Source: Pirellulales bacterium (GTDB taxonomy: Bacteria > Planctomycetota > Planctomycetia > Pirellulales > UBA1268). From it: DNA of 64,000 bases. Each line of letters begins with the position of its first letter. Position 1 is the first letter of the stretch. The position numbers and the translations under genes are program-made. Under the pieces are notes generated by a model that was given only the letters and a program-made list of their open reading frames with translations, was not told where the DNA came from and ran no database searches. Shown piece after piece: positions 9,391-59,212 of the stretch. The stretch lies in NCBI GenBank assembly GCA_016776925.1, contig JADHSL010000001.1:28311-92310 (forward strand), written 5' to 3'.

Positions 9391-10425
9391 TTAGTTGTTG
9401 AAAACACGTGGGGAGGCAATAAGGCCATCAATGAGGCTTTGAGGTAAAGGTGACGTCGCTGCCAGTAGCGAGCCGACAACACTACCTCGATGACAGGAGT
9501 CACCACCACATTGTGCATTTGAGCAGATTCCATTTGCTGGCTTACCGGCATGTCTGTATGCGAGAAACAGTGCGGCGGGAAATGCATCGGGAATGTAGCA
9601 GGCCGATGAGAGCATTCCGCCGACAACTACTCGATCAGGATAGTCTTCCCAGCGTGCGATCTTTGCCTTCGACACCCATTGAGAAGCCTCGTCAAGAATG
9701 ACCTCCTGTAAGGGTGCTCCAAGGCTTACGCCGGCCAGGATTCGAACAAGAACATCAGCCGCAGCAAGTACGTCATTGTCTTTGTGGGTAAGCGAGACAT
9801 GACTCTGTACTATTTCACGAATATCAGGATGTCGTGGACCGAGCGCGGCAACCAGCGCCGGAACACCGACAAGACCACCAATGTGAATGTCGCGGACTCC
9901 GCAATTAACCGCTTTTCGACCAGAGGCATAATTTGTAAAAAAGTGCCGGTGGTACTCTTCAGCGTAGGTGTCATTGTGCTTCTGAGGAGTAAGCATGAAG
10001 TTGATATAGTGATCGAGCCAGCGAATGGAATCATAGTGTCCCAAACGTCGAACCAATTCGAACAGTTCAATCGCCAGAAGTGAATTGAGGGTGTTTTCGC
10101 CAGCTGTTAGAAATTGGTGGTAGTGTACGCCACGTTTGCCCCAGTACTGCGACTGCTCACGCAAAATATCACCGTCTGCATTGAGTGGCTTGTATTCGGA
10201 TCGCCAGAGAATGCTGTCAGGATGCGTCTTTCTGGGCGAGTGATAGGAATCAAGTATCCCAAAGTCTCTCTCAATTGCAGATTGGTTGTAGTACCAATGA
10301 ACGGGCATTGCGATACTGTCGGCTACCAGGGCACCAAGCAATATTTGTTGGCCAAAAGAAACGGTCGAAAGCGTTTCGATGTCCACATGTTGTCTTTTTT
10401 CTTCATCTGATTGAGGAGTGTTCAT
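9391..10425 (-). CDS. ADP-ribosylglycohydrolase (ARH) family protein
   Basis: 344 aa. N-terminal LLGALVADSIAMPVHWYY and C-terminal GGDSCHRGSVVGSLL motifs are typical of the ARH/DraG fold. Its ATG overlaps the stop of the upstream ABC ATPase gene (ATGA). Confidence 0.8.
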   Translation of the reverse strand: MNTPQSDEEKRQHVDIETLSTVSFGQQILLGALVADSIAMPVHWYYNQSAIERDFGILDSYHSPRKTHPDSILWRSEYKPLNADGDILREQSQYWGKRGVHYHQFLTAGENTLNSLLAIELFELVRRLGHYDSIRWLDHYINFMLTPQKHNDTYAEEYHRHFFTNYASGRKAVNCGVRDIHIGGLVGVPALVAALGPRHPDIREIVQSHVSLTHKDNDVLAAADVLVRILAGVSLGAPLQEVILDEASQWVSKAKIARWEDYPDRVVVGGMLSSACYIPDAFPAALFLAYRHAGKPANGICSNAQCGGDSCHRGSVVGSLLAATSPLPQSLIDGLIASPRVFNN

Positions 10426-27615: not shown

Positions 27616-29796
27616 CTATGCATTCCGCGGAGTATAGGTGACCTCAAAAATAATTGATGAGGCCACGGTGTTGCCAAAGTTTGGTTGGTCTGCGGCAATA
27701 CCCCCAAACATGTATCCAAGTACAGTCTCCGTGGTTAAAGAGTCGAGGTCGATGATGCCATCAGTTAGTACAGGAGCATCATGGGCTGGGAAGAAGCGGG
27801 CATTGGCACCAAAATAAAGAAGTTTTCCATTGCCATCATAAACATTTGGGAAATCGGTTATGTATTGTTGCCGATATGTACCAGATGCATCCCGCAACGC
27901 CGCTGTTATTTGCCTGTGAAAGCCATTGTTCTCGTCGTACGTGAGTTGCTCCGTAACTGAGTCGAATGTATTTGCTGAAATACCACCGAGAAGGACTTGA
28001 GTCATCTCTCCAGAGTTCTGGGAGTAAAGTCCGATTTTGCCAGATTCATACTGGTTCATAGCCTGCCTAAACACGTCGGGCTCAGTTGTCGGGTTTTCGG
28101 TTGTTGGGATACCGTCTGATCCGATTTCAACCGGCACAGTCCACACCCCTACGCCGTTGTAGAAAACACCAGCCAATGCAACAGTACTCTTCGTAGTGCC
28201 ACCCTGATCGTTGGGTGAAAGAATTGGGAACACATTCAAATCACGGCGACGAAACCGGCTTGGGTCTCCACCTGAAGGAGCAATATCAACGTTACTATAA
28301 GAAAGAGTTCCATTAGTGAAGTCATAATCAATATCAAAACTGCGAACCTGGGAGGTATAGACTTGGAAAGTCGTTGATCCGTGTGCGTACGGACCTTCAA
28401 ACTTCTGTCCAAAAACCAGTTGATAGCGATTTCCTATTTTTTCCAAGCCTCCGCCAGTCACCTGAAAAAACCCACCATCATACGAGCCGTCAGGAGACTC
28501 TTCTCCAGCAACCTGTACGATGGTATTTGTGTGGAGCGTTTCATCTGTCCCTTTGACCCAATCTACAAGTGTTGGTAGATCGATAGCTGAAAGCGCATTG
28601 TAGGTTGTGAAGTTATTAATCGCACGAGAGTAAACGTATCCACCCACGACATATAGCGTGTTTCCATCCTGGTAAGACTCGGTGTTGGTTGATGACAAAC
28701 TGTCGATTTCACTCGAAGTAAGACCGCTGCTGGTATCGTCCAGTGAGCGACTCCATGTCTCCTTCGATACTGGGTCAATAACCCACACGTCGGTGTTTTG
28801 GTACCTCGGTGGAAAATTGGCTAACCCGTCATCAGAGAAACCATGGAGTCCATTGGTGCGACCAGCAATGAGCACCCACTGGCCGTTGTAAATGCCACCG
28901 GCAAACGATTGAAGTGTTGGGACCGATACTGTTCCCATGTCATATTCAGCAAAAGTAAGGTCGTAGTCACCAGACCAATTCGTTACCTGACTAAAAGTAG
29001 GTGTCTGGTCCTTCGAGGGTGCTGCTGAAATGCTTGAAGTTGGTCCCGTTACATGCGCATCTGTATCTGTTGCCCAGACCCAGAATGTGTATGGGACACC
29101 GGTTTCCAGGTCTGAAACGTTTTTACTAGTGGATGTTGTTATGAATGTCGTGTTCGTTGATCCATTGTCAATTGTCACTGTGTAATTCAACGAGCCAACA
29201 AATGATGCTGGTGGGTCCCAGCTAACCGTCAATGAATTTGCGTCTTCTGATTGGCCAAATCTCAGATTTTGAACCTCGGAGGGCGCTTCGATGGATGGTG
29301 GAGTTATTGGGTTTCCATCATCCCATCCAACAACATCAAACGCCTTGTCGAAGTCCAGTGGGCTTGTTGACTGCGAAGGCGTCCACTGGATGCGGTCGCC
29401 TTGCTGGATCAGACGGAGTTGAAGTAACTTGAGAAGTTCCATCGGATTCGATGTGGTTGGAACTGCTGAGACGTTTACCCAGCGTTCTGTTGCTGGTAGC
29501 CATTTTTCTACAACACCGTTTGCGACAGATGTAATAACAAAGCTATTAGTTTCGTCTCCAATAATCTCAGACTTGTTCATTATTATCGGTGCCGGACCGA
29601 TTAGCGAATTTAAATAGACAGAATCTGTTTGTTCTAACGGCGGGCGGGAAACAGTGCCTGTATCTGCAGCAAGTGCGAGACGGTTTTCAAGAAGTTCAAG
29701 GCTGCCGAGTCTCTGCTGAGCAGGTGCTTGAAGAAGAGCAGTAGGCCTCACTGTATTACTAAAAAAAAACTTTTTATTTCCAAAAAAACGCTTCAT
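27616..29796 (-). CDS. large secreted protein with an FN3-like segment and Kelch/beta-propeller-like repeats
   Basis: I place the start at the ATG at 29796 (MKRFFGNKKFFFSN...). N-terminal LELLENRLALAAD motif, FN3-like LTVSWDPP...YTFWVWA, and repeats such as YVVGGY and FQVTGGG. Confidence 0.55.
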   Translation of the reverse strand: MKRFFGNKKFFFSNTVRPTALLQAPAQQRLGSLELLENRLALAADTGTVSRPPLEQTDSVYLNSLIGPAPIIMNKSEIIGDETNSFVITSVANGVVEKWLPATERWVNVSAVPTTSNPMELLKLLQLRLIQQGDRIQWTPSQSTSPLDFDKAFDVVGWDDGNPITPPSIEAPSEVQNLRFGQSEDANSLTVSWDPPASFVGSLNYTVTIDNGSTNTTFITTSTSKNVSDLETGVPYTFWVWATDTDAHVTGPTSSISAAPSKDQTPTFSQVTNWSGDYDLTFAEYDMGTVSVPTLQSFAGGIYNGQWVLIAGRTNGLHGFSDDGLANFPPRYQNTDVWVIDPVSKETWSRSLDDTSSGLTSSEIDSLSSTNTESYQDGNTLYVVGGYVYSRAINNFTTYNALSAIDLPTLVDWVKGTDETLHTNTIVQVAGEESPDGSYDGGFFQVTGGGLEKIGNRYQLVFGQKFEGPYAHGSTTFQVYTSQVRSFDIDYDFTNGTLSYSNVDIAPSGGDPSRFRRRDLNVFPILSPNDQGGTTKSTVALAGVFYNGVGVWTVPVEIGSDGIPTTENPTTEPDVFRQAMNQYESGKIGLYSQNSGEMTQVLLGGISANTFDSVTEQLTYDENNGFHRQITAALRDASGTYRQQYITDFPNVYDGNGKLLYFGANARFFPAHDAPVLTDGIIDLDSLTTETVLGYMFGGIAADQPNFGNTVASSIIFEVTYTPRNA

Positions 29797-29948
29797 GCAG
29801 AGGCCCCTTCGACGACACGTCCCCATATCCCACAATGATTAAGACTAATTCAAGCAGTCACAGAAGGCAAAGAACCGGCCGTTGAGCATGAAATAGAACC
29901 GGATGGTCAAGAAGGACTTCGGCCAAAAGCATATTCAGCGTTGCCGCT

Positions 29949-29965
29949 ACCTCTTAGATGCTAAA
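29949..29965 (+). repeat. left copy of the 17-nt core ACCTCTTAGATGCTAAA
   Basis: Exact match to 34694-34710. Embedded in the hairpin TACCTCT(29948-54)/AGAGGTA(29971-77). Confidence 0.9.
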
Positions 29966-30451
29966 GACGTAGAGGTACCCGATAGAAAACCTTGAAAGAG
30001 ACAAAACAGCCTTAGTCATGGCGTTTTTAAAATCGTGCCCGTTCTCTCGGTTGGTGTAAACCGATCGTTTCGATCGTTTATCGGGTACGAAAACGGGTAC
30101 AGCTATCCACCTCCTTTGCATCAACCTCCGCTGCCAATCATCCCTGGATCGGGATGCCGAATCTTGGAGTCATCGTCACCCCGGTTGGATCAGACAGGGG
30201 CGGCGTTTTTTTGTATTCGCTTTCTGTCTCATTCTTCCGCCGAACCCCACCTATTAGCAACAAATGTTGGGGTCCTGTGTTCGTATTTTGGACAACGCCA
30301 GGACGTCCTGAATCTGCCACTTTTGCCGTCGTAATATCCCTACGCAACTTGGCCCGTCCGTAGGTTTCGTCATTTCCGTACGGGCGGGCTTTCTCATGCA
30401 CCAAACGAAACGCATTTTCACCCGTAGTAATTACTGGAAGCCACATCTGAA

Positions 30452-30494
30452 CCCGTCAGCAGCACATCCCCGTTACCTGCTGGCGGGTTTTTCT
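30452..30494 (+). terminator. intrinsic terminator-like hairpin plus T-tract
   Basis: CCCGTCAGCAG (30452-62) pairs with CTGCTGGCGGG (30477-87), giving 11 bp with one G-U pair. It is followed by TTTTTCT. Confidence 0.55.
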
Positions 30495-30522
30495 ATGCAC
30501 ACCGCTTCGTGCAGCAGTCTGT

Positions 30523-30551
30523 TAAACTGCACCCATGCAAGACGATCCACC
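30523..30551 (+). repeat. start module copy 1 (TAAACTGCACCCATGCAAGACGATCCACC)
   Basis: One of three near-identical 29-nt blocks. TAAACT lies 6 nt upstream of the ATG. Confidence 0.9.
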
Positions 30552-30630
30552 GACAGACGAGCCTGACGAATTCGATGGTATGTTAGACGATGCACCGTCA
30601 ACAGGGCTGCACATGCCTGAAGAAGACTAG
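30535..30630 (+). CDS. 31-aa acidic peptide MQDDPPTDEPDEFDGMLDDAPSTGLHMPEED
   Basis: Own translation (below the ORF-track cutoff). Shares the N-terminus with two neighbouring ORFs and MLDDAP(S/T)T with the third. Supported by paralogy only. Confidence 0.4.
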   Translation: MQDDPPTDEPDEFDGMLDDAPSTGLHMPEED

Positions 30631-30748
30631 GGCCGCATGGCCAATTCATACGCCCTGCCTTGTTTGCTGTAATGAAACCCTAATCGATTCTTCATTTAGG
30701 CCTAACTTAAGTCTGCAATAAAAATAAAGGAGTTGGAGAACCTCCGCC

Positions 30749-30804
30749 AGAACCACTCTTATCTTTTGATCCCCAATGCGAAGGTAAGAGTGGTTCTTCT
30801 TTAT
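30749..30804 (+). terminator. 13-bp perfect hairpin followed by a T-rich run
   Basis: AGAACCACTCTTA (30749-61) pairs with TAAGAGTGGTTCT (30785-97) across a 23-nt loop, followed by TCTTTAT. Confidence 0.35.
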
Positions 30805-30833
30805 CTAGCCCCGTCTTGTTTGCGGTAGTCTTC

Positions 30834-30862
30834 TAAACTGCACCCATGCAAGACGATCCACC
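30834..30862 (+). repeat. start module copy 2
   Basis: TAAACTGCACCCATGCAAGACGATCCACC, identical to copy 1. Confidence 0.9.
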
Positions 30863-31040
30863 TGAAGACGAATTCGACGGCATTCCGCTGGTTACGTGTA
30901 CATTTTGTAACAAACAGGTAAGCGACAGCGTGAAGCGATGCCCCTACTGCGGAAGGCAATTAATTGCAGAATGGAACTGGTTAATTTGGATGTATGTTGT
31001 GGTTATTGCTGGTGCATCATATTACCTATTTCGGCAATAA
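30846..31040 (+). CDS. 64-aa protein: MQDDPP acidic N-terminus, zinc ribbon, C-terminal membrane span
   Basis: ORF track. CTFC..12..CPYC zinc ribbon, then WNWLIWMYVVVIAGASYYLF. Confidence 0.5.
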   Translation: MQDDPPEDEFDGIPLVTCTFCNKQVSDSVKRCPYCGRQLIAEWNWLIWMYVVVIAGASYYLFRQ

Positions 31041-31051
31041 ATAACCCAGAA

Positions 31052-31080
31052 TAAACTGCACCTATGCAAGACGATCCGCC
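31052..31080 (+). repeat. start module copy 3
   Basis: TAAACTGCACCTATGCAAGACGATCCGCC (2 mismatches). Confidence 0.9.
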
Positions 31081-31156
31081 AGAAGACGACGATGATCTGA
31101 GCGAAATGCTGGACGACGCACCCACCACACCACCAAATCCATACGGGGAGGAATGA
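31064..31156 (+). CDS. 30-aa acidic peptide MQDDPPEDDDDLSEMLDDAPTTPPNPYGEE
   Basis: Own translation. Its stop TGA overlaps the ATG of the next gene (ATGA at 31153-31156). Confidence 0.45.
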   Translation: MQDDPPEDDDDLSEMLDDAPTTPPNPYGEE

Positions 31157-31512
31157 TGAAGTTTTCAGTTGCTGCTGTGGTTCTTCTTGCGTTGGGTGGG
31201 TGTTCACAAAAAGTAACTCTTGAAGACTTGGGTAACCTCAAACACGAGACAAGTCTTAGTGACGTTAAAAGGCTTTTGGGGGAACCCGACCGGGAATTAG
31301 CATTTGGTACAACTCCTGATTATCGTCTTCATCTAGTGGTATATGTAGTTGGTTGGGAGGAGTTTCTACTGATCTTCGATAGAGGATCAGAACTGCCAGA
31401 ATCAGAATTTATTTTGAATGGGAAACAAAGACTCACAGCCAAAAAGAAAAAATTGTTAGCGGATGATTATTTGAACAAGTTTGAAAAACCTATCCCACTG
31501 TCTTGGCAATAA
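31153..31512 (+). CDS. small lipoprotein
   Basis: 119 aa. Signal peptide plus lipobox (VVLLALGGC). The SLSDVKRLLGEPD segment is reminiscent of BamE/SmpA-OmlA-like small lipoproteins. Confidence 0.55.
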   Translation: MMKFSVAAVVLLALGGCSQKVTLEDLGNLKHETSLSDVKRLLGEPDRELAFGTTPDYRLHLVVYVVGWEEFLLIFDRGSELPESEFILNGKQRLTAKKKKLLADDYLNKFEKPIPLSWQ

Positions 31513-31546
31513 CAAAAAGGGCGGTAACGAATAAACGCTGCCGCCC
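31506..31546. repeat. repeat/hairpin copy 1 (GCAATAACAAAAAGGGCGGTAACGAATAAACGCTGCCGCCC)
   Basis: Stem 31519-26 / 31539-46. Near-identical to 32765-32801. Confidence 0.85.
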
Positions 31547-31623
31547 TCACTACTGTTCGTAGCGGGGCTCTCGTCTAATCCCAATAGAACGGATTAAACC
31601 GCTGTAGGCGATTGCTGTAGACT

Positions 31624-32745
31624 TTGTCCGAATGTCCGAAAGTTTTTACTCAGAAGGGGGAAAGTATTATTAAAAAGAGTGAGGCCATAAAAGGTGCTTT
31701 TTTTGGCGCTGTAGTCGCGGACGCACTTTGTTTGGGAAGTCATTACGAATATGACGCCCAAAAGATTTATGAGGCCTGTGGCAAAAAATCGATTGAGAAA
31801 TTCATGTCTCCCGGTGAAATGATGGGCGGTCAAACTCATGGCATTGGATGGGGCGAGAGAAACTATCATCCCGGTAAAAAAGCGGGCGGCACAACCGACT
31901 ACGGCGATTATAATATTTTGGTCTTAGAACATTTGGCGGAAATAGCTGATCCACCCAGACCGTTCAGTGTCGCCGCGTTGATTCCCCACTGGATGAACCG
32001 CCTTGAACAGAGTTGGGGTTCATGGATCTGTACCATGACGCAAGAGACCTATGCCCAGGTCAAACAAGGTGTTCCGACTAAACATTTGGGCGGCATATCC
32101 AATGCCATGGCCATTCGCCATGTCGCAGCCCATGCCTATTATGAATCGGAAGAGGAGCTTGTTGATGTTGCCAGAAAGTCGATGTTTACACACAAAGACG
32201 CTCATGCCCTTGGTGGCGGAGAATTTTTTGCCCGCGTGACGCACCGGGTGATCCATGGCATGAAACCAAGGAGAGCTATTGAGGAGGTTGCCGCGCAGAT
32301 GGGCGGCTTTATCAAGGACAAAGCACTACAGGCAATCGCCAAGGTGGAAGAAGAAGCGGATCCAAATTCCGCACTTTTTAAAGAAGCGTTTAGCGACGAT
32401 CTCGCACTTACAAGTATGGCCAGACTTTGGGATGTCGGCCGCTCGGAACCGATCAAGGTAGGAAAAGCGAGCCCAACAGAGGGAACTCTACCGGGTGCCG
32501 TTTACTTTATCTTAAAATATGCCGAGCAAGAAGAGGGACTAAAAGGGGCGATGCAGGCCAATGCCATGGTAGGAGGCGACAACGCATCACGCAGTATCGC
32601 GATCGGCATGGTACTTGGAGCCTATAAGGGGGTTGAAGCAATTCCGCCAGAGTGGAAAGAGACATTCGATCAATGGACGTATTGCGAAAATTTATTAAAA
32701 AAGCTCCCCTTGCTCAGGAAAGTAACAATCATCGATCAGGACTAA
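31624..32745 (+). CDS. ADP-ribosylglycohydrolase family protein (islet-borne)
   Basis: 373 aa with a TTG start in the track. GAFFGAVVADALCLGSHYEYD and GGDNASRSIAIGMVLGA motifs of the ARH fold. Confidence 0.75.
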   Translation: MSECPKVFTQKGESIIKKSEAIKGAFFGAVVADALCLGSHYEYDAQKIYEACGKKSIEKFMSPGEMMGGQTHGIGWGERNYHPGKKAGGTTDYGDYNILVLEHLAEIADPPRPFSVAALIPHWMNRLEQSWGSWICTMTQETYAQVKQGVPTKHLGGISNAMAIRHVAAHAYYESEEELVDVARKSMFTHKDAHALGGGEFFARVTHRVIHGMKPRRAIEEVAAQMGGFIKDKALQAIAKVEEEADPNSALFKEAFSDDLALTSMARLWDVGRSEPIKVGKASPTEGTLPGAVYFILKYAEQEEGLKGAMQANAMVGGDNASRSIAIGMVLGAYKGVEAIPPEWKETFDQWTYCENLLKKLPLLRKVTIIDQD

Positions 32746-32817: not shown

Positions 32818-33281
32818 TTACCGTTTCCCCTTCCGCCAATCCCGCGGTGCTATTGGGTTCGGATCAGCCCACAGGCCGATCTTGCTTTCTTTGGCGTATC
32901 GTTCGGCGCGTTCTCTCATTCTTCCGTCTTGTCGTAACGGCGATACCACCACGCCATCCCCATACGCACCATCATGGTATTGATGGCCTGATCTTCAATG
33001 AAGATATATCCCAGCGTCCTGCCATAGCGATCCTTGCCACTACTCTTGATGGAGGCAGTCTTTCCAAAGGCAACGGCTGAGAGTGCTTGTTTGGCGTTGT
33101 TCCCAAAGGGCTGGCCCAGTTCCAGCGTATCAATACCAGACAGCCTTACCTTCAGTGTTTCATCTTCAGTGCGTAGCGTTAGCGTGCCGTCGTCATGAAC
33201 ACCAACCACCTTGCCAACGATCGTTGTGTCAGCGGCAAGGGTGAGGAGTGCTAGCAGGCAGAAGAGGGTTAGGGTTTTCAT
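32818..33281 (-). pseudogene. staphylococcal-nuclease (thermonuclease/SNase) homologue split by a frameshift
   Basis: The 121-aa ORF carries a signal peptide and the SNase core (VRLSGIDTLE, QPFG, DRYGRTLGYI). The expected C-terminus RERAERYAKESKIGLWADPNPIAPRDWRKGKR is in another frame (32919..32818). The two frames overlap as ATGA at 32916-32919. Confidence 0.7.
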
Positions 33282-34738: not shown

Positions 34739-34812
34739 TAGCGGCGGCCGGACTTGAACCGGCGACCCCAGGCTTATGAAGCCTGTGCTCTAACCAACTG
34801 AGCTACACCGCC
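34739..34812 (-). tRNA. tRNA with CAU anticodon (elongator Met, or Ile2 if lysidine-modified)
   Basis: The reverse complement GGCGGTGTAGCTCAGTTGGTTAGAGCACAGGCTTCATAAGCCTGGGGTCGCCGGTTCAAGTCCGGCCGCCGCTA folds as a cloverleaf. D arm GCTC/GAGC; anticodon stem CAGGC/GCCTG with loop TTCATAA; T arm GCCGG-TTCAAGT-CCGGC. No CCA is encoded. Pair 1-72 is G-U in my fold. Confidence 0.85.
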
Positions 34813-39390: not shown

Positions 39391-39860
39391 GAATCTGAGT
39401 GGGCCTGTAAGCCGGGTTTTGTTCTTTTGGGTCAATTTCCCAAAAGAGGCAATCATTTCTCTACGACGGCAGTTACCTGCAGTCTCAAGCAGCCCACCCG
39501 AAAAGAAACTGAAGCGGATCGCCTCAGGCCGCTGTTTAGAGCGGACTCTCTTCTGTTCGGCCTTGCTCCCGATGGGGTTTACCGAGCCAGACCAGTCACC
39601 CGGCCTGCTGGTGAGCTCTTACCTCACCGTTTCACCCTTACCAGCAGACAGGAGCCTGCTGGCGGTCTAATTTCTGTGGCACTTTCCCTAACCTTACGGC
39701 TGGTGGGGGTTACCCACCATCGCATCCTTCGGAGCCCGGACTTTCCTCTCGCCAGAATGTTTTTGGCACAAAAAATGCAGCTTAATCTCGAAAGATAGAA
39801 ATGCACATTTCACAATCCAAATCCGTATCTGACCAGCGACTGCCCGGCCCACTCAGATTC
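39391..39860 (-). ncRNA. rnpB: RNase P RNA (bacterial type A)
   Basis: The minus strand carries GAGGAAAGTCCGGGCTCC (the universal CR-I motif) and ACAAAACCCGGCTTAC near the 3' end. The termini pair as P1: GAATCTGAGTGGGCC (39860-39846) with GGCCCACTCAGATTC (39405-39391). Confidence 0.9.
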
Positions 39861-59094: not shown

Positions 59095-59212
59095 GAGCGA
59101 CTGCCGATGAGAGGCCCACCGCACAAAGAGACGACTGCTTATGGCTGCTGCGGTTAAGCCCTGACCAGGTTCGCAGGCCTCCATCGCAGGGGCCCCTCAT
59201 CGGCCTCCGCTC
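59095..59212 (-). ncRNA. ffs: signal recognition particle RNA (4.5S type)
   Basis: The minus strand carries GAACCTGGTCAGGGC....GCAGCAGCCATAAG (domain IV motifs GGUCAGG / AGCAGCC). The termini pair (GCCGATGAGGGGCCC with GGGCCTCTCATCGGC). It sits in the classic position upstream of dnaX. The apical loop is atypical (CTTAAC). Confidence 0.75.

What the first reader, a model, noticed from the sequence alone, without database searches (positions are those of the whole stretch)
30535..31512. A mosaic family of MQDDPP-headed mini-proteins, one translationally coupled to a lipoprotein gene
The three module-driven ORFs encode:
- A: MQDDPPTDEPDEFDGMLDDAPSTGLHMPEED (31 aa)
- B: MQDDPPEDEFDG followed by a CxxC..CxxC zinc ribbon and a membrane span (64 aa)
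- C: MQDDPPEDDDDLSEMLDDAPTTPPNPYGEE (30 aa)

A shares DEFDG with B and MLDDAP(S/T)T with C. The three are therefore recombinant mosaics rather than simple duplicates.

A and C each have 12 Asp/Glu residues and no Lys or Arg. The stop of C overlaps the start of the lipoprotein gene at 31153 (ATGA), so the two are very likely co-translated.

I do not recognise these sequences as any described family. Extremely acidic, proline-containing peptides could be disordered antitoxin-like or inhibitor peptides, DNA or protein mimics, or a shared sorting tag. All of that is speculation.
Basis: partly seen in the sequence, partly recalled or inferred. Interest (0 to 1): 0.55.

Follow-up and report, generated by a model that had tools for sequence, protein, structure and literature searches.

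The report
Shared start cassette on shuffled genes
The three MQDDPP mini-ORFs are real, translated members of a gene family confined to marine Pirellulales, in which one nearly invariant 17-base start segment heads dozens of unrelated small genes and marks the point where gene bodies are swapped; the two tiny acidic peptides are the cargo-less form, and one of them hands ribosomes to the lipoprotein gene.

Summary
ORFs A (30535-30630), B (30846-31040) and C (31064-31156) exist as described, and C's TGA overlaps the lipoprotein ATG.

Related marine metagenome contigs (Pirellulales, Planctomycetota) carry more than 120 ORFs that start with ATGCAAGACGATCCACC. These include tiny acidic peptides, zinc-ribbon and tail-anchored membrane proteins, large acidic proteins and a Sir2 deacetylase. 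They sit in tandem, co-oriented arrays inside strain-variable islands.

- The head is invariant even at synonymous sites. The following tag shows a coding signature: third-position diversity is highest, pN/pS is 0.50 in frame against 0.81 and 1.25 out of frame, and all length differences keep the frame.
- The head is a junction. 37 copy pairs share at least 85% identity upstream but have unrelated cargo; 12 pairs show the reverse.
- A and C are a head joined directly to one of two tail modules. The C tail ends in GGGGAGGAATGATG and is followed by the next gene's start within -4 to +7 nt in 14 of 18 contexts. That gene is usually exported. The A tail has no coupled partner.

Best reading: this is a portable start/leader cassette that is also a recombination hotspot, not an antitoxin or mimic. 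A peptide-level role is not excluded. No described family matches.

The parts
30105..30349 (+). Repeated non-coding element X. It has an upstream half ending in a T-run and a downstream half, X2, which recurs upstream of many island genes in related contigs.
   Evidence: blastn of this stretch against the related loci gave about 30 hits, including two copies in L001. No Rfam match.
30309..30335 (+). ECF-sigma-type promoter look-alike inside X2: TGAAT (consensus TGAAC), 16 nt, CGTAAT. Inferred, not shown.
   Evidence: In 15 X2 copies the blocks GTCCTGAAC and CGTAATAT are the best conserved and keep a 16-nt spacing. The AAC/CGT resemblance to ECF promoters rests on general knowledge.
30351..30389 (+). 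GC-rich RNA hairpin H1 (GCCCGTCCGTAGG...CGTACGGGCGGGC), followed by TTTCT.
   Evidence: It belongs to a family of 30 unique hairpins. Mean folding energy is -24.1 kcal/mol on the gene strand and -19.5 on the opposite strand (Wilcoxon p = 6e-6), with 49 G-U pairs. Also listed by the terminator scan.
30450..30488 (+). GC-rich RNA hairpin H2 (CCCGTCAGCAG...CTGCTGGCGGG), followed by TTTTTCT.
   Evidence: The same H1-spacer-H2 unit precedes MQDDPP genes in L001, L005, L017, L018, L057 and L077.
30515..30551 (+). Start module copy 1: CAGTCTGTTAAACTGCACCC plus the head ATGCAAGACGATCCACC.
30535..30630 (+). ORF A, 31 aa. Cargo-less tag with the A-type tail (APSTGLHMPEED) and no coupled downstream gene.
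   Evidence: Orthologous or paralogous A-type peptides occur in L020, L045, L053 and L065. The same tag is fused in frame to Sir2 in L019. None of 5 A-type contexts is coupled.
30580..30596 (+). Internal degenerate copy of the head (ATGTTAGACGATGCACC, encoding MLDDAP).
   Evidence: 14/17 match to the head. In L077 the equivalent codons serve as the start of a 16-aa ORF, MVDEAPTTPPDMYGEE.
30749..30797 (+). 17-bp inverted repeat followed by a T-rich run. Terminator-like hairpin between A and B.
   Evidence: inverted repeat I1.
30826..30862 (+). Start module copy 2.
30846..31040 (+). ORF B, 64 aa: head, EDEFDG, a CxxC...CxxC zinc ribbon and a C-terminal membrane span. An ordinary cargo-bearing member of the family.
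   Evidence: Pfam Zn_Ribbon_1. Homologues P0001-P0003 and many loci keep the head.
31053..31080 (+). Start module copy 3 (2 mismatches).
31064..31156 (+). ORF C, 30 aa. Cargo-less tag with the C-type tail (APTTPPNPYGEE). Acts as a leader ORF.
31145..31158 (+). Junction module GGGGAGGAATGATG: a Shine-Dalgarno-like run, the stop of C, and the overlapping ATG (then a second ATG) of the next gene.
   Evidence: The same junction occurs in 21 unique contexts behind upstream ORFs of 5 to 140 aa. 11 C-type contexts overlap by exactly 4 nt.
31153..31512 (+). Lipoprotein gene, 119 aa. Lineage-restricted, with an OsmE/BamE-like predicted fold.
   Evidence: Only 12 homologous clusters were found. Model pLDDT is 76. 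The best PDB fold matches are OsmE 4dm5 and BamE, at weak significance (E = 9e-3, TM 0.48-0.63).
31513..31548 (+). Right-end module AAAAAGGGCGGTAACGAATAAACGCTGCCGCCC. Terminator-like, and recurs at the ends of arrays.
   Evidence: Present in L001, L005, L077 and L084. In other contigs it is read in frame as a ...KKGGNE* C-terminus.

Best explanation
ORFs A, B and C belong to a Pirellulales-specific family of strain-variable accessory genes. The family is built from interchangeable modules.

The module common to all members is a start cassette. Its core is ACC(C/T)ATGCAAGACGATCCACC, that is, the translation start region plus codons 1-6 (MQDDPP). An acidic, proline-rich, presumably disordered linker often follows.

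Shown:
- The cassette heads many unrelated coding bodies arranged in tandem, co-oriented arrays.
- It is the point at which upstream context and cargo reassort between related genomes.
- The tag codons downstream of it evolve as translated sequence.

Inferred:
1. The cassette works mainly as a portable translation-initiation/leader unit, and its repeated identical sequence is the crossover site for recombinational cargo exchange.
2. When the cargo is cytoplasmic or tail-anchored (ORF B, Sir2), the head is simply fused in frame.
3. When the cargo needs its own N-terminal signal peptide, the head is joined to a tail module that ends in GGGGAGGAATGATG. The short ORF (C) then terminates on the cargo's start codon, and ribosomes loaded at the head re-initiate on the lipoprotein gene (termination-reinitiation). 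Most genes in this genome lack a Shine-Dalgarno sequence.
4. ORF A is the same head joined to the alternative tail. It has no partner and is followed by a terminator-like hairpin, so it is a cargo-less end unit.
5. Transcription probably starts at an ECF-type promoter in the repeated X2 element upstream and passes through conserved RNA hairpins.
For: Family size and diversity:
- One metagenome scan returned 58 contigs. Together with the first ten loci and the window, they hold 119-126 ORFs with this head.
- All copies within a locus are co-oriented, with typical spacings of 3, 9, 19 or 23 nt.

Nucleotide invariance of the head:
- CAA, GAC and GAT are used in about 98-100% of copies. Background usage in window genes is 0.49, 0.42 and 0.58. 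The third base of codon 6 varies freely.
- This holds in 19/19 copies that do not match the upstream half (TARACTNNANNN) of the search pattern.
- It also holds in 5 of 6 head-type copies on three contigs (L077-L079) that were found through the protein search rather than the DNA pattern; the sixth reads ATGGAAGACGATCCACC, MEDDPP.

Translation of the tag:
- 37 unique tags all reach the tail motif in frame despite differing linker lengths.
- Diversity by codon position is 0.34, 0.26 and 0.49. pN/pS is 0.50 in frame and 0.81 and 1.25 in the shifted frames. Conserved Pro, Thr and Asp columns vary only at the third position.
- The whole tag is fused in frame to a Pfam-confirmed Sir2 domain.

The head as a junction:
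- L029, L044 and L055 are about 97% identical for 180 nt up to ATGCAAGACGATCCA. Beyond that they carry Sir2, a tag-only ORF and an unrelated membrane protein respectively.
- Among 6441 copy pairs, 37 have at least 85% identity upstream and under 55% downstream; 12 show the reverse.

Coupling:
- 14 of 18 evaluable C-type contexts have the next start within -4 to +7 nt of the stop, 11 of them at exactly -4. The redoxin leaders overlap by 8 or 11 nt. None of 5 A-type contexts is coupled.
- Minimal 12-aa and 16-aa forms keep only the head (or head-like start) and the junction.
- The junction recurs in 21 contexts.

No specific peptide-lipoprotein partnership:
- Lipoprotein homologues keep the junction but not the tag.

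Genome and context:
- Most window genes lack a Shine-Dalgarno sequence.
- X2 promoter-like blocks are conserved, and the hairpins are strand-specific RNA structures.
- No integrase or transposase was found within about 10 kb of the island or among the recurrent neighbouring proteins sampled.
Against: - There are no expression data of any kind. Transcription start sites, promoters and re-initiation are all inferred.
- The tag shows residue-specific amino-acid conservation (for example DDAP(T/S)TPP with synonymous variation). A mere ribosome-delivery ORF would not need this.
- The lipoprotein gene has its own strong Shine-Dalgarno-like GGGGAGG, so coupling may not be required.
- ORF A has no downstream partner, so the leader role does not explain it.
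- The predicted accessibility of the start region is only slightly above background (0.49 against 0.46).
- A shared core of about 21 nt is short for RecA-type recombination.
- Invariance of synonymous sites could have another cause, such as a binding site.
- Some apparent shuffles could be assembly chimeras at the repeat. Against this, several arrangements recur in independent samples and in long contigs that appear from their record names to be long-read assemblies.
Confidence: 0.55

Rival explanations
1. The tag is a functional protein-level signal: a short linear motif or disordered acidic domain that targets or recruits its carriers to a common partner, location or turnover pathway. The free peptides A and C would then act as soluble competitors or regulators of that interaction.
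For: - There is purifying selection on amino acids in the tag, with specific conserved residues.
- The tag is retained in frame on cytoplasmic and tail-anchored cargo, including Sir2.
- Tag-only peptides are conserved in many contigs and in 133 protein clusters.
- The A-type peptide has no coupling role to explain it.
Against: - Only the 6-codon head is universal, and it is conserved at synonymous sites, which a peptide signal does not require.
- Many members carry no more of the tag than the head and a short acidic stretch.
- pN/pS of 0.5 is weak constraint.
- Gly-substituted tags exist (MQGDPPEGGDDLGG...), as do 12-aa and 16-aa minimal forms.
- No partner is known and there is no similarity to any Pfam or PDB entry.
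Confidence: 0.2
2. The head is the core site of a dedicated site-specific cassette-exchange system, with a recombinase or homing nuclease encoded elsewhere. It would not simply be a repeat used by general recombination. Cargo would be inserted or excised at ACCYATGCAAGACGATCCACC, producing in-frame fusions and tandem arrays.
For: - The boundaries are sharp on both sides of a core of about 21 nt.
- The core is invariant in at least five different upstream contexts and across contigs from different samples.
- The genes form tandem co-oriented arrays of small ORFs.
- A T5orf172 (GIY-YIG-like) gene is among the island cargo in L054.
Against: - No integrase, transposase or recombinase was found within about 10 kb of the window island or among the recurrent neighbours.
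- The core has no dyad symmetry (read directly from the sequence).
- There are no attC-like sites. The hairpins are selected at the RNA level, with G-U pairs on the gene strand.
- Mosaic breakpoints also lie inside the tag and at the tail modules, as expected for recombination between any repeats.
Confidence: 0.12
3. A and C are regulatory leader peptides. Ribosome pausing at the EF-P-dependent motifs DPP(E/D/Q) (codons 4-7) and TPP(N/D) (six codons before the stop) would gate initiation and expression of the downstream gene.
For: - Both Pro-Pro motifs are the best conserved parts of the tag. They persist in the 12-aa (MQDDPPNPYGEK) and 16-aa (MVDEAPTTPPDMYGEE) minimal forms.
- A ribosome paused at PPN would sit next to the junction Shine-Dalgarno sequence and ATG (geometry inferred).
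- The strength of DPP and PPN/PPD as stalling contexts is general knowledge from E. coli.
Against: - There is no alternative RNA structure or sensor logic to link a pause to an output.
- 5-aa MYGEE uORFs and start-less remnants of the junction occur in front of homologous cargo.
- The head is also fused to long proteins, where such a pause would simply lower yield.
- The internal head-like repeat has lost its Pro-Pro motif (DDAP).
Confidence: 0.08
4. The small ORFs are not translated. They would be chance reading frames across a repeated non-coding element, or products of metagenome mis-assembly at a repeat.
For: - The head and junction are conserved as DNA even where no start codon precedes the tail (L084).
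- The repeat of about 37 nt could confuse assemblers.
Against: - The coding signature is frame-specific.
- 37 tags keep the frame despite length differences.
- In-frame fusions to real domains exist.
- The same arrangements are recovered from several samples (window, L013, L035 and L062; L001-L004; L019, L043 and L047) and on long contigs of 0.45-4.1 Mb.
Confidence: 0.03

Closest known systems
ORF-11, ORF-17 and ORF-18 of the class 1 integron attI1 site (short leader ORFs that raise translation of the first cassette by coupling; review PMC8876359, read)
   Same: A short ORF with its own start sits at a recombination junction. It ends at or near the start of whatever cargo lies downstream. It can become fused in frame to cargo. 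It is thought to deliver ribosomes to cargo that has poor initiation signals.
   Different: There is no IntI, attI or attC here. The ORF start, not its end, is the conserved junction. Every array position can carry the head, not only the first. The peptide is longer, shows some amino-acid constraint, and is itself the N-terminus of many proteins.
PeSL mobile regulatory cassettes of T4-type phages (promoter plus stem-loop motifs that mediate modular shuffling; PMC2839356; PMC4122927)
   Same: Short conserved regulatory repeats, including stem-loops, flank small ORFan genes in hyperplastic regions. They are the breakpoints of insertion, deletion and replacement between close relatives.
   Different: This is a bacterial chromosome, not a phage. 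The repeat that marks the junction includes the start codon and the first six codons, so shuffling creates protein fusions. Promoter activity is not shown.
Promoter reuse and putative mobile promoters in prokaryotes (PMC3575422)
   Same: Highly similar 5' regulatory sequences occur in front of non-homologous genes within one genome. The X2 element and the start module behave this way.
   Different: The conservation here extends into the coding sequence and is strongest there. Copies lie in tandem arrays rather than dispersed.
Variable surface lipoprotein families of mycoplasmas (vsp, vlp, vsa) with a near-identical 5' region and signal peptide on divergent bodies
   Same: A multigene family shares a nearly identical 5' end with variable remainders, clustered in one locus and prone to recombination.
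   Different: There the shared part is a lipoprotein signal peptide, and variation is phase-variable within a clone. Here the shared head is cytoplasmic and acidic, the cargo is unrelated in fold, and variation is seen between strains.

Membership tests
Integron / attC cassette array | An IntI-type tyrosine recombinase gene next to the array | tested here: not met
   Pfam scans of the ORFs within about 10 kb on both sides of the island, and of the recurrent neighbours in related loci, found no integrase. Precomputed Pfam lists for L077-L084 also show none.
Integron / attC cassette array | attC sites (R''-L''...L'-R' with a GTTRRRY core) between cassettes | tested here: not met
   The intergenic hairpins are GC-rich stems without AAC/GTT cores. 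They are more stable on the transcribed strand and contain 49 G-U pairs, which indicates RNA-level structures.
Translational-coupling leader ORF (ORF-11-like) | A short upstream ORF whose stop overlaps or abuts the start codon of the downstream gene | tested here: met
   ATGA overlap at 31153-31156. 14 of 18 C-type contexts have the next start within -4 to +7 nt. The junction recurs in 21 contexts.
Translational-coupling leader ORF (ORF-11-like) | The effect depends on translation of the ORF, not on its peptide sequence | tested here: inconclusive
   For: minimal 5-, 12- and 16-aa forms and unrelated uORFs use the same junction. Against: pN/pS is 0.5, with conserved residues. The functional effect cannot be tested with these tools.
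PeSL-type mobile regulatory cassette | A conserved regulatory repeat lies at the breakpoints of gene replacement between close relatives | tested here: met
PeSL-type mobile regulatory cassette | A composite of a strong sigma-70 promoter and a terminator stem-loop, in a phage genome | tested here: not met
   The sigma-70 scan found no promoter-like site in 29700-31800. The context is chromosomal: RNase P RNA, SRP RNA, a tRNA and housekeeping genes.
Zinc-ribbon domain proteins (Pfam PF13240) - ORF B only | A CxxC...CxxC ribbon matching the family model above its cut-off | tested here: met
   28.2 bits against a cut-off of 25, E = 1.6e-6.
Any described peptide or protein family for the acidic tag | Significant similarity to a Pfam model, a solved structure or a published sequence | tested here: not met
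   No Pfam hit for tag sequences at E <= 1. The best PDB E-value is 3.4. No paper contains MQDDPP. All database homologues are unnamed or labelled 'hypothetical protein'.
Ribosome-arrest / monitoring leader peptides (SecM, MifM, VemP, ApdA type) | The leader carries its own signal or membrane segment and an arrest motif, upstream of a secretion-machinery gene | tested here: not met
   A and C have no hydrophobic segment. The downstream genes are assorted cargo, not Sec or YidC components. Arrest itself is not testable here.

The most novel reading that the evidence does not exclude
The 17-21-nt head is not just a reused repeat. It would be a dedicated signal of an undescribed system in Pirellulales. 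One possibility is that it is the in-ORF core site of a cassette-capture platform that builds arrays by creating in-frame N-terminal fusions; this would be functionally integron-like but without IntI or attC. The other is that it is a start-codon-proximal recognition element defining a co-regulated, possibly ECF-sigma-controlled, set of envelope mini-proteins.
Probability: 0.2. Interest if true: 0.85.

Novelty: new variant of a known kind. Interest (0 to 1): 0.6.

Why it matters
Planctomycetes genomes are full of unannotated small genes, and how their accessory gene pool turns over is poorly understood. Here a single short start cassette, invariant even at silent sites, is attached to dozens of unrelated small membrane, secreted and cytoplasmic proteins. 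It also marks where gene bodies are exchanged between strains.

If the cassette supplies translation initiation and a recombination handle at once, it is a simple natural plug-and-play system for expressing newly acquired genes in a lineage that mostly lacks Shine-Dalgarno sequences. It would also be a useful genetic part for a group with few tools.

The finding further shows that 30-aa ORFs usually discarded by gene callers can be evolutionarily maintained.

The unexplained synonymous-site invariance is a concrete, testable question. The candidates are a crossover site, an initiation signal or a binding site.

Tried and rejected
- **Known RNA family:** Rfam searches at gathering and at permissive thresholds found nothing in 29700-31700.
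- **GTDB species genomes:** a scan with a head pattern gave two matches. The one inspected (L011) lies inside a longer ORF and looks like a chance match; the other (L012) could not be read. The lineage is therefore absent or masked there, and copy number per genome could not be measured.
- **Module as a leaderless-mRNA promoter (TGnTAAACT, 6 nt, ATG):** I considered this because the spacing fits. I dropped it as the main reading for four reasons. The TAA is often the stop codon of the preceding ORF. Other upstream contexts lack it altogether. Part of its apparent invariance was forced by my search pattern. A better promoter candidate lies in X2.
- **A stem pairing TGCAG with CTGCA around the module:** not maintained across copies (position frequencies).
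- **A trans-acting antisense partner:** no complementary site exists elsewhere in the window.
- **Integron/attC reading of the hairpins:** rejected (and the integrase searches).
- **ORF A as a truncated remnant of the Sir2 5' end:** unlikely, because the ...PH(M/L)PE(E/D) tail is conserved in many contexts.
- **Start-region accessibility:** only a small effect.
- **Lipoprotein sequence searches:** no Pfam family. The fold search gives only a weak OsmE/BamE-like match.
Full report
**1. The observation**

- A is 30535-30630 (31 aa).
- B is 30846-31040 (64 aa). It has a CxxC...CxxC ribbon that passes the Pfam Zn_Ribbon_1 threshold and a C-terminal hydrophobic span.
- C is 31064-31156 (30 aa).

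A and C each contain 8 Asp and 4 Glu and no basic residue. C's TGA (31154-31156) overlaps the ATG (31153-31155) of a 119-aa ORF with a lipoprotein-type signal, MMKFSVAAVVLLALGGCSQ.

A 28-nt module spanning the start codon occurs three times in the window with at most 2 mismatches. Dinucleotide-preserving shuffles of the window gave none (family D1).

**2. The ORFs belong to a large, lineage-restricted family**

A protein search with B found three homologues that keep the MQDDPP head. Their contigs also carry C-like peptides directly downstream.

One scan of metagenome contigs with the module as a DNA pattern returned 58 marine contigs. Together with the first loci and the window, these hold 119-126 ORFs beginning M(Q/R)(D/G)DPP. 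The ORFs include:
- acidic peptides of 12-36 aa;
- 39-aa membrane peptides;
- zinc-ribbon/TM proteins;
- several families of acidic proteins with a C-terminal membrane anchor;
- acidic proteins of 164-355 aa;
- a 272-285-aa protein whose body is a Pfam-confirmed Sir2 deacetylase.

A profile of the tag found 133 clusters among 5.8 billion proteins. Nearly all are 28-80 aa and none has a Pfam domain; one is named by NCBI as coming from a Pirellulales bacterium. An exhaustive profile search of 1.84 billion cluster representatives found only 42.

Neighbouring genes fit a marine planctomycete: sulfatases, DUF1583, DUF1501/PSD1 and H4MPT-pathway MtdA. A scan of GTDB species genomes with a head pattern gave two matches. 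The one inspected lies inside a longer ORF and looks like chance; the other could not be read. No paper in the library contains MQDDPP.

**3. Anatomy of the family**

Within every locus all head-bearing genes point the same way. They usually lie 3, 9, 19 or 23 nt apart.

The genes are built from recurring modules.
- **Head.** This is the universal module: ACC(C/T)ATGCAAGACGATCCACC.
- **Acidic linker.** It comes in two flavours, ...EDEPDEFDG and ...DPDDDDLSD.
- **Second, degenerate head.** ATG(C/T)TGGACGA(C/T)GCACC, encoding MLDDAP. In ORF A this is a 14/17 match to the head. In L077 it serves as the start of a 16-aa ORF.
- **Two homologous 12-residue tails.** These are AP(S/T)TGPH(M/L)PE(E/D) (A type) and APTTPPN(P/M)YGEE (C type).

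Cargo can sit between head and tail (for example L031, L056 and L061). A and C are a head joined directly to a tail, with nothing in between.

The C tail ends in GGGGAGGAATGATG. This junction occurs in 21 unique contexts, behind upstream ORFs ranging from MYGEE (5 aa) to a 140-aa membrane protein.

**4. Are the mini-ORFs translated?**

Thirty-seven distinct tags all reach the tail motif in frame, even though their linkers differ in length.

Beyond codon 6, nucleotide diversity is 0.34, 0.26 and 0.49 at codon positions 1, 2 and 3. pN/pS is 0.50 in the ORF frame, and 0.81 and 1.25 in the two shifted frames. Conserved Asp, Pro and Thr columns vary almost only at the third position.

The entire tag is also found fused in frame to Sir2 and other bodies.

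**5. The head is conserved as nucleotides and is a junction**

Codons 2-5 are CAA GAC GAT CCA in essentially all copies. Background usage in window genes is 0.49 for CAA, 0.42 for GAC and 0.58 for GAT. The third base of codon 6 is free (A, T or G).

This is not an artefact of my DNA pattern. It holds in 19/19 copies that lack the upstream half of the pattern. It also holds in 5 of 6 head-type copies on three long contigs retrieved through the protein search, which have yet other upstream sequences; the sixth copy begins ATGGAAGAC (MEDDPP).

Three contigs are about 97% identical for 180 nt up to ATGCAAGACGATCCA. After that they carry Sir2, a tag-only ORF and an unrelated membrane protein.

Over all 6441 copy pairs, 37 share at least 85% identity in the 120 nt upstream with unrelated sequence downstream, and 12 show the reverse. 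Upstream context and cargo therefore reassort at the head.

A caveat is that assemblers can mis-join at repeats. Against this, several arrangements recur in independent samples (window, L013, L035 and L062; L001-L004; L019, L043 and L047; L027, L044 and L048). The architecture is also present in contigs of 0.45-4.1 Mb.

**6. Coupling to the lipoprotein gene**

Of 18 evaluable C-type contexts, 14 have the next start codon within -4 to +7 nt of the stop, and 11 overlap by exactly 4 nt as ATGA. Four redoxin leaders overlap by 8 or 11 nt. None of five A-type ORFs is coupled.

The downstream genes are mostly exported or membrane proteins with similar MM(K/R)F... signal peptides. There is also a zinc-ribbon protein and others.

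The lipoprotein itself is lineage-restricted, with 12 clusters. Its model has pLDDT 76, and the best, though weak, fold matches are OsmE and BamE.

Its homologues elsewhere keep the junction sequence but not the tag.
- L082 and L083 have a different uORF, MSNKRRERNMYGEE.
- L084 has the tail sequence with no start codon upstream.
- L080 has a minimal in-frame fusion, ATGCGACGAGGAATGATG.
- L001 has a 55-aa ORF ending ...TSGDE*.

The conserved relationship is therefore with the junction, not with peptide C as a partner of this lipoprotein.

**7. Surroundings**

Upstream lies a repeated non-coding element, X (30105-30349). It recurs in the related loci, twice in L001.

In 15 copies of its downstream half (X2), the best conserved blocks are GTCCTGAAC and CGTAATAT, 16 nt apart. 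In the window these are TGAAT at 30309-30313 and CGTAAT at 30330-30335. That is the layout of ECF-sigma promoters (general knowledge). This is an inference.

X2 is always followed within about 10 nt by a GC-rich hairpin. The same hairpin family also occurs after genes. Thirty unique copies are significantly more stable on the gene strand and contain 49 G-U pairs, so they are RNA structures.

A 17-bp terminator-like hairpin follows A. A conserved right-end module follows the lipoprotein gene; elsewhere it is read as a ...KKGGNE* C-terminus.

No integrase or transposase was found near the island or among the recurrent neighbours. One cargo gene in L054 encodes a T5orf172 domain.

Most genes in the window lack a Shine-Dalgarno sequence.

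**8. Interpretation**

Shown:
- a translated, lineage-specific family;
- a head invariant at the nucleotide level that is the reassortment point;
- tandem co-oriented arrays;
- a conserved stop/start overlap for C-type tails.

Inferred:
- The head plus its flank works as a portable translation-start unit.
- Its identical copies are the substrate for recombinational cargo exchange, which in turn keeps them identical.
- It is fused in frame to cytoplasmic or tail-anchored cargo.
- For cargo that needs a free signal peptide, it is closed by the C tail, so that terminating ribosomes re-initiate on the cargo.

ORF A is a cargo-less end unit.

This most resembles the integron attI1 leader ORFs (PMC8876359) combined with the modular shuffling seen at PeSL motifs in T4-type phages (PMC2839356). 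It fails the defining tests for either family.

Three things remain open:
- why silent sites of codons 2-5 are frozen (crossover site, initiation signal or binding site);
- whether the residue-level conservation of the tag reflects a peptide function;
- whether the two Pro-Pro motifs act as translational pauses.

**9. Verdict**

The finding is a new variant of known kinds of system (leader-ORF coupling and repeat-mediated modular shuffling) in an under-studied phylum, with one unexplained feature. Interest is 0.6.

Noticed in passing
window 30226-30349 (X2); conserved blocks at 30309-30313 and 30330-30335: A repeated non-coding element lies upstream of many different first genes of these islands. 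Its conserved blocks TGAAC-N16-CGTAAT resemble an ECF-sigma promoter, which suggests envelope-stress control of the arrays.
   Followed up: partly
window 30351-30389 and 30450-30488; 30 unique copies in related loci: A family of 12-13-bp GC-rich hairpins followed by TTTCT. They are more stable on the gene strand and contain many G-U pairs. They occur both directly after the promoter-like element and after genes, so they could be 5' stabilisers, partial terminators or both.
   Followed up: partly
window 31513-31548: A conserved right-end module, AAAAAGGGCGGTAACGAATAAACGCTGCCGCCC, recurs at array ends (L001, L005, L077, L084). In other contigs it is translated as the C-terminus ...KKGGNE* of unrelated proteins, making it a third reusable junction.
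   Followed up: partly
window 30652-30671 versus 30808-30827: A degenerate copy of the sequence just upstream of the start module (GCCCTGCCTTGTTTGCTGTA) lies shortly after ORF A. It looks like the scar of a lost module or cargo.
   Followed up: no
L019 5779-6636(-) and L029 11669-12487(-): A CobB/Sir2-type deacetylase, the only recognisable enzyme in the family, carries the whole acidic tag as an N-terminal extension. The two contigs have two different linker flavours.
   Followed up: partly
proteins P0068, P0103, P0112, P0118, P0119; L077 about 9700-9990: A second head family (MMTKEADETPEEIVEHLAELGL...) is joined to the same DLSDMLDDAPTTPPNMYGEE tail. The tail is therefore an independent module.
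   Followed up: no
L054 433-1041(-); L056 326-964(+): In L054 a protein combining a T5orf172 (GIY-YIG-like) domain (Pfam match) with a C-terminal membrane region sits directly behind the X2 element and hairpin. L056 carries a related-looking protein in the same position, but it had no Pfam hit. These are possible mobile nuclease-type genes inside the islands.
   Followed up: partly
window 31153-31512: The lipoprotein has no Pfam family, but its model (pLDDT 76) resembles the OsmE/BamE small lipoprotein fold. Several other coupled cargo proteins show the same G-M-T-x-x-E-V-x-x-L-G-x-P sequence signature.
   Followed up: partly
window 31624-32745 and 32916-33281(-): An ADP-ribosylglycohydrolase gene and a staphylococcal-nuclease-like lipoprotein gene flank the island. 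The nuclease gene is the conserved right-hand neighbour of the array in L001 and in L077, which lies on a 4.1-Mb contig. This marks a stable chromosomal site for a variable island.
   Followed up: partly
window 39392-39855(-), 34739-34812(-), 59103-59201(-): RNase P RNA (class A), tRNA-Met and SRP RNA are present, confirming that the window is ordinary bacterial chromosome.
   Followed up: yes
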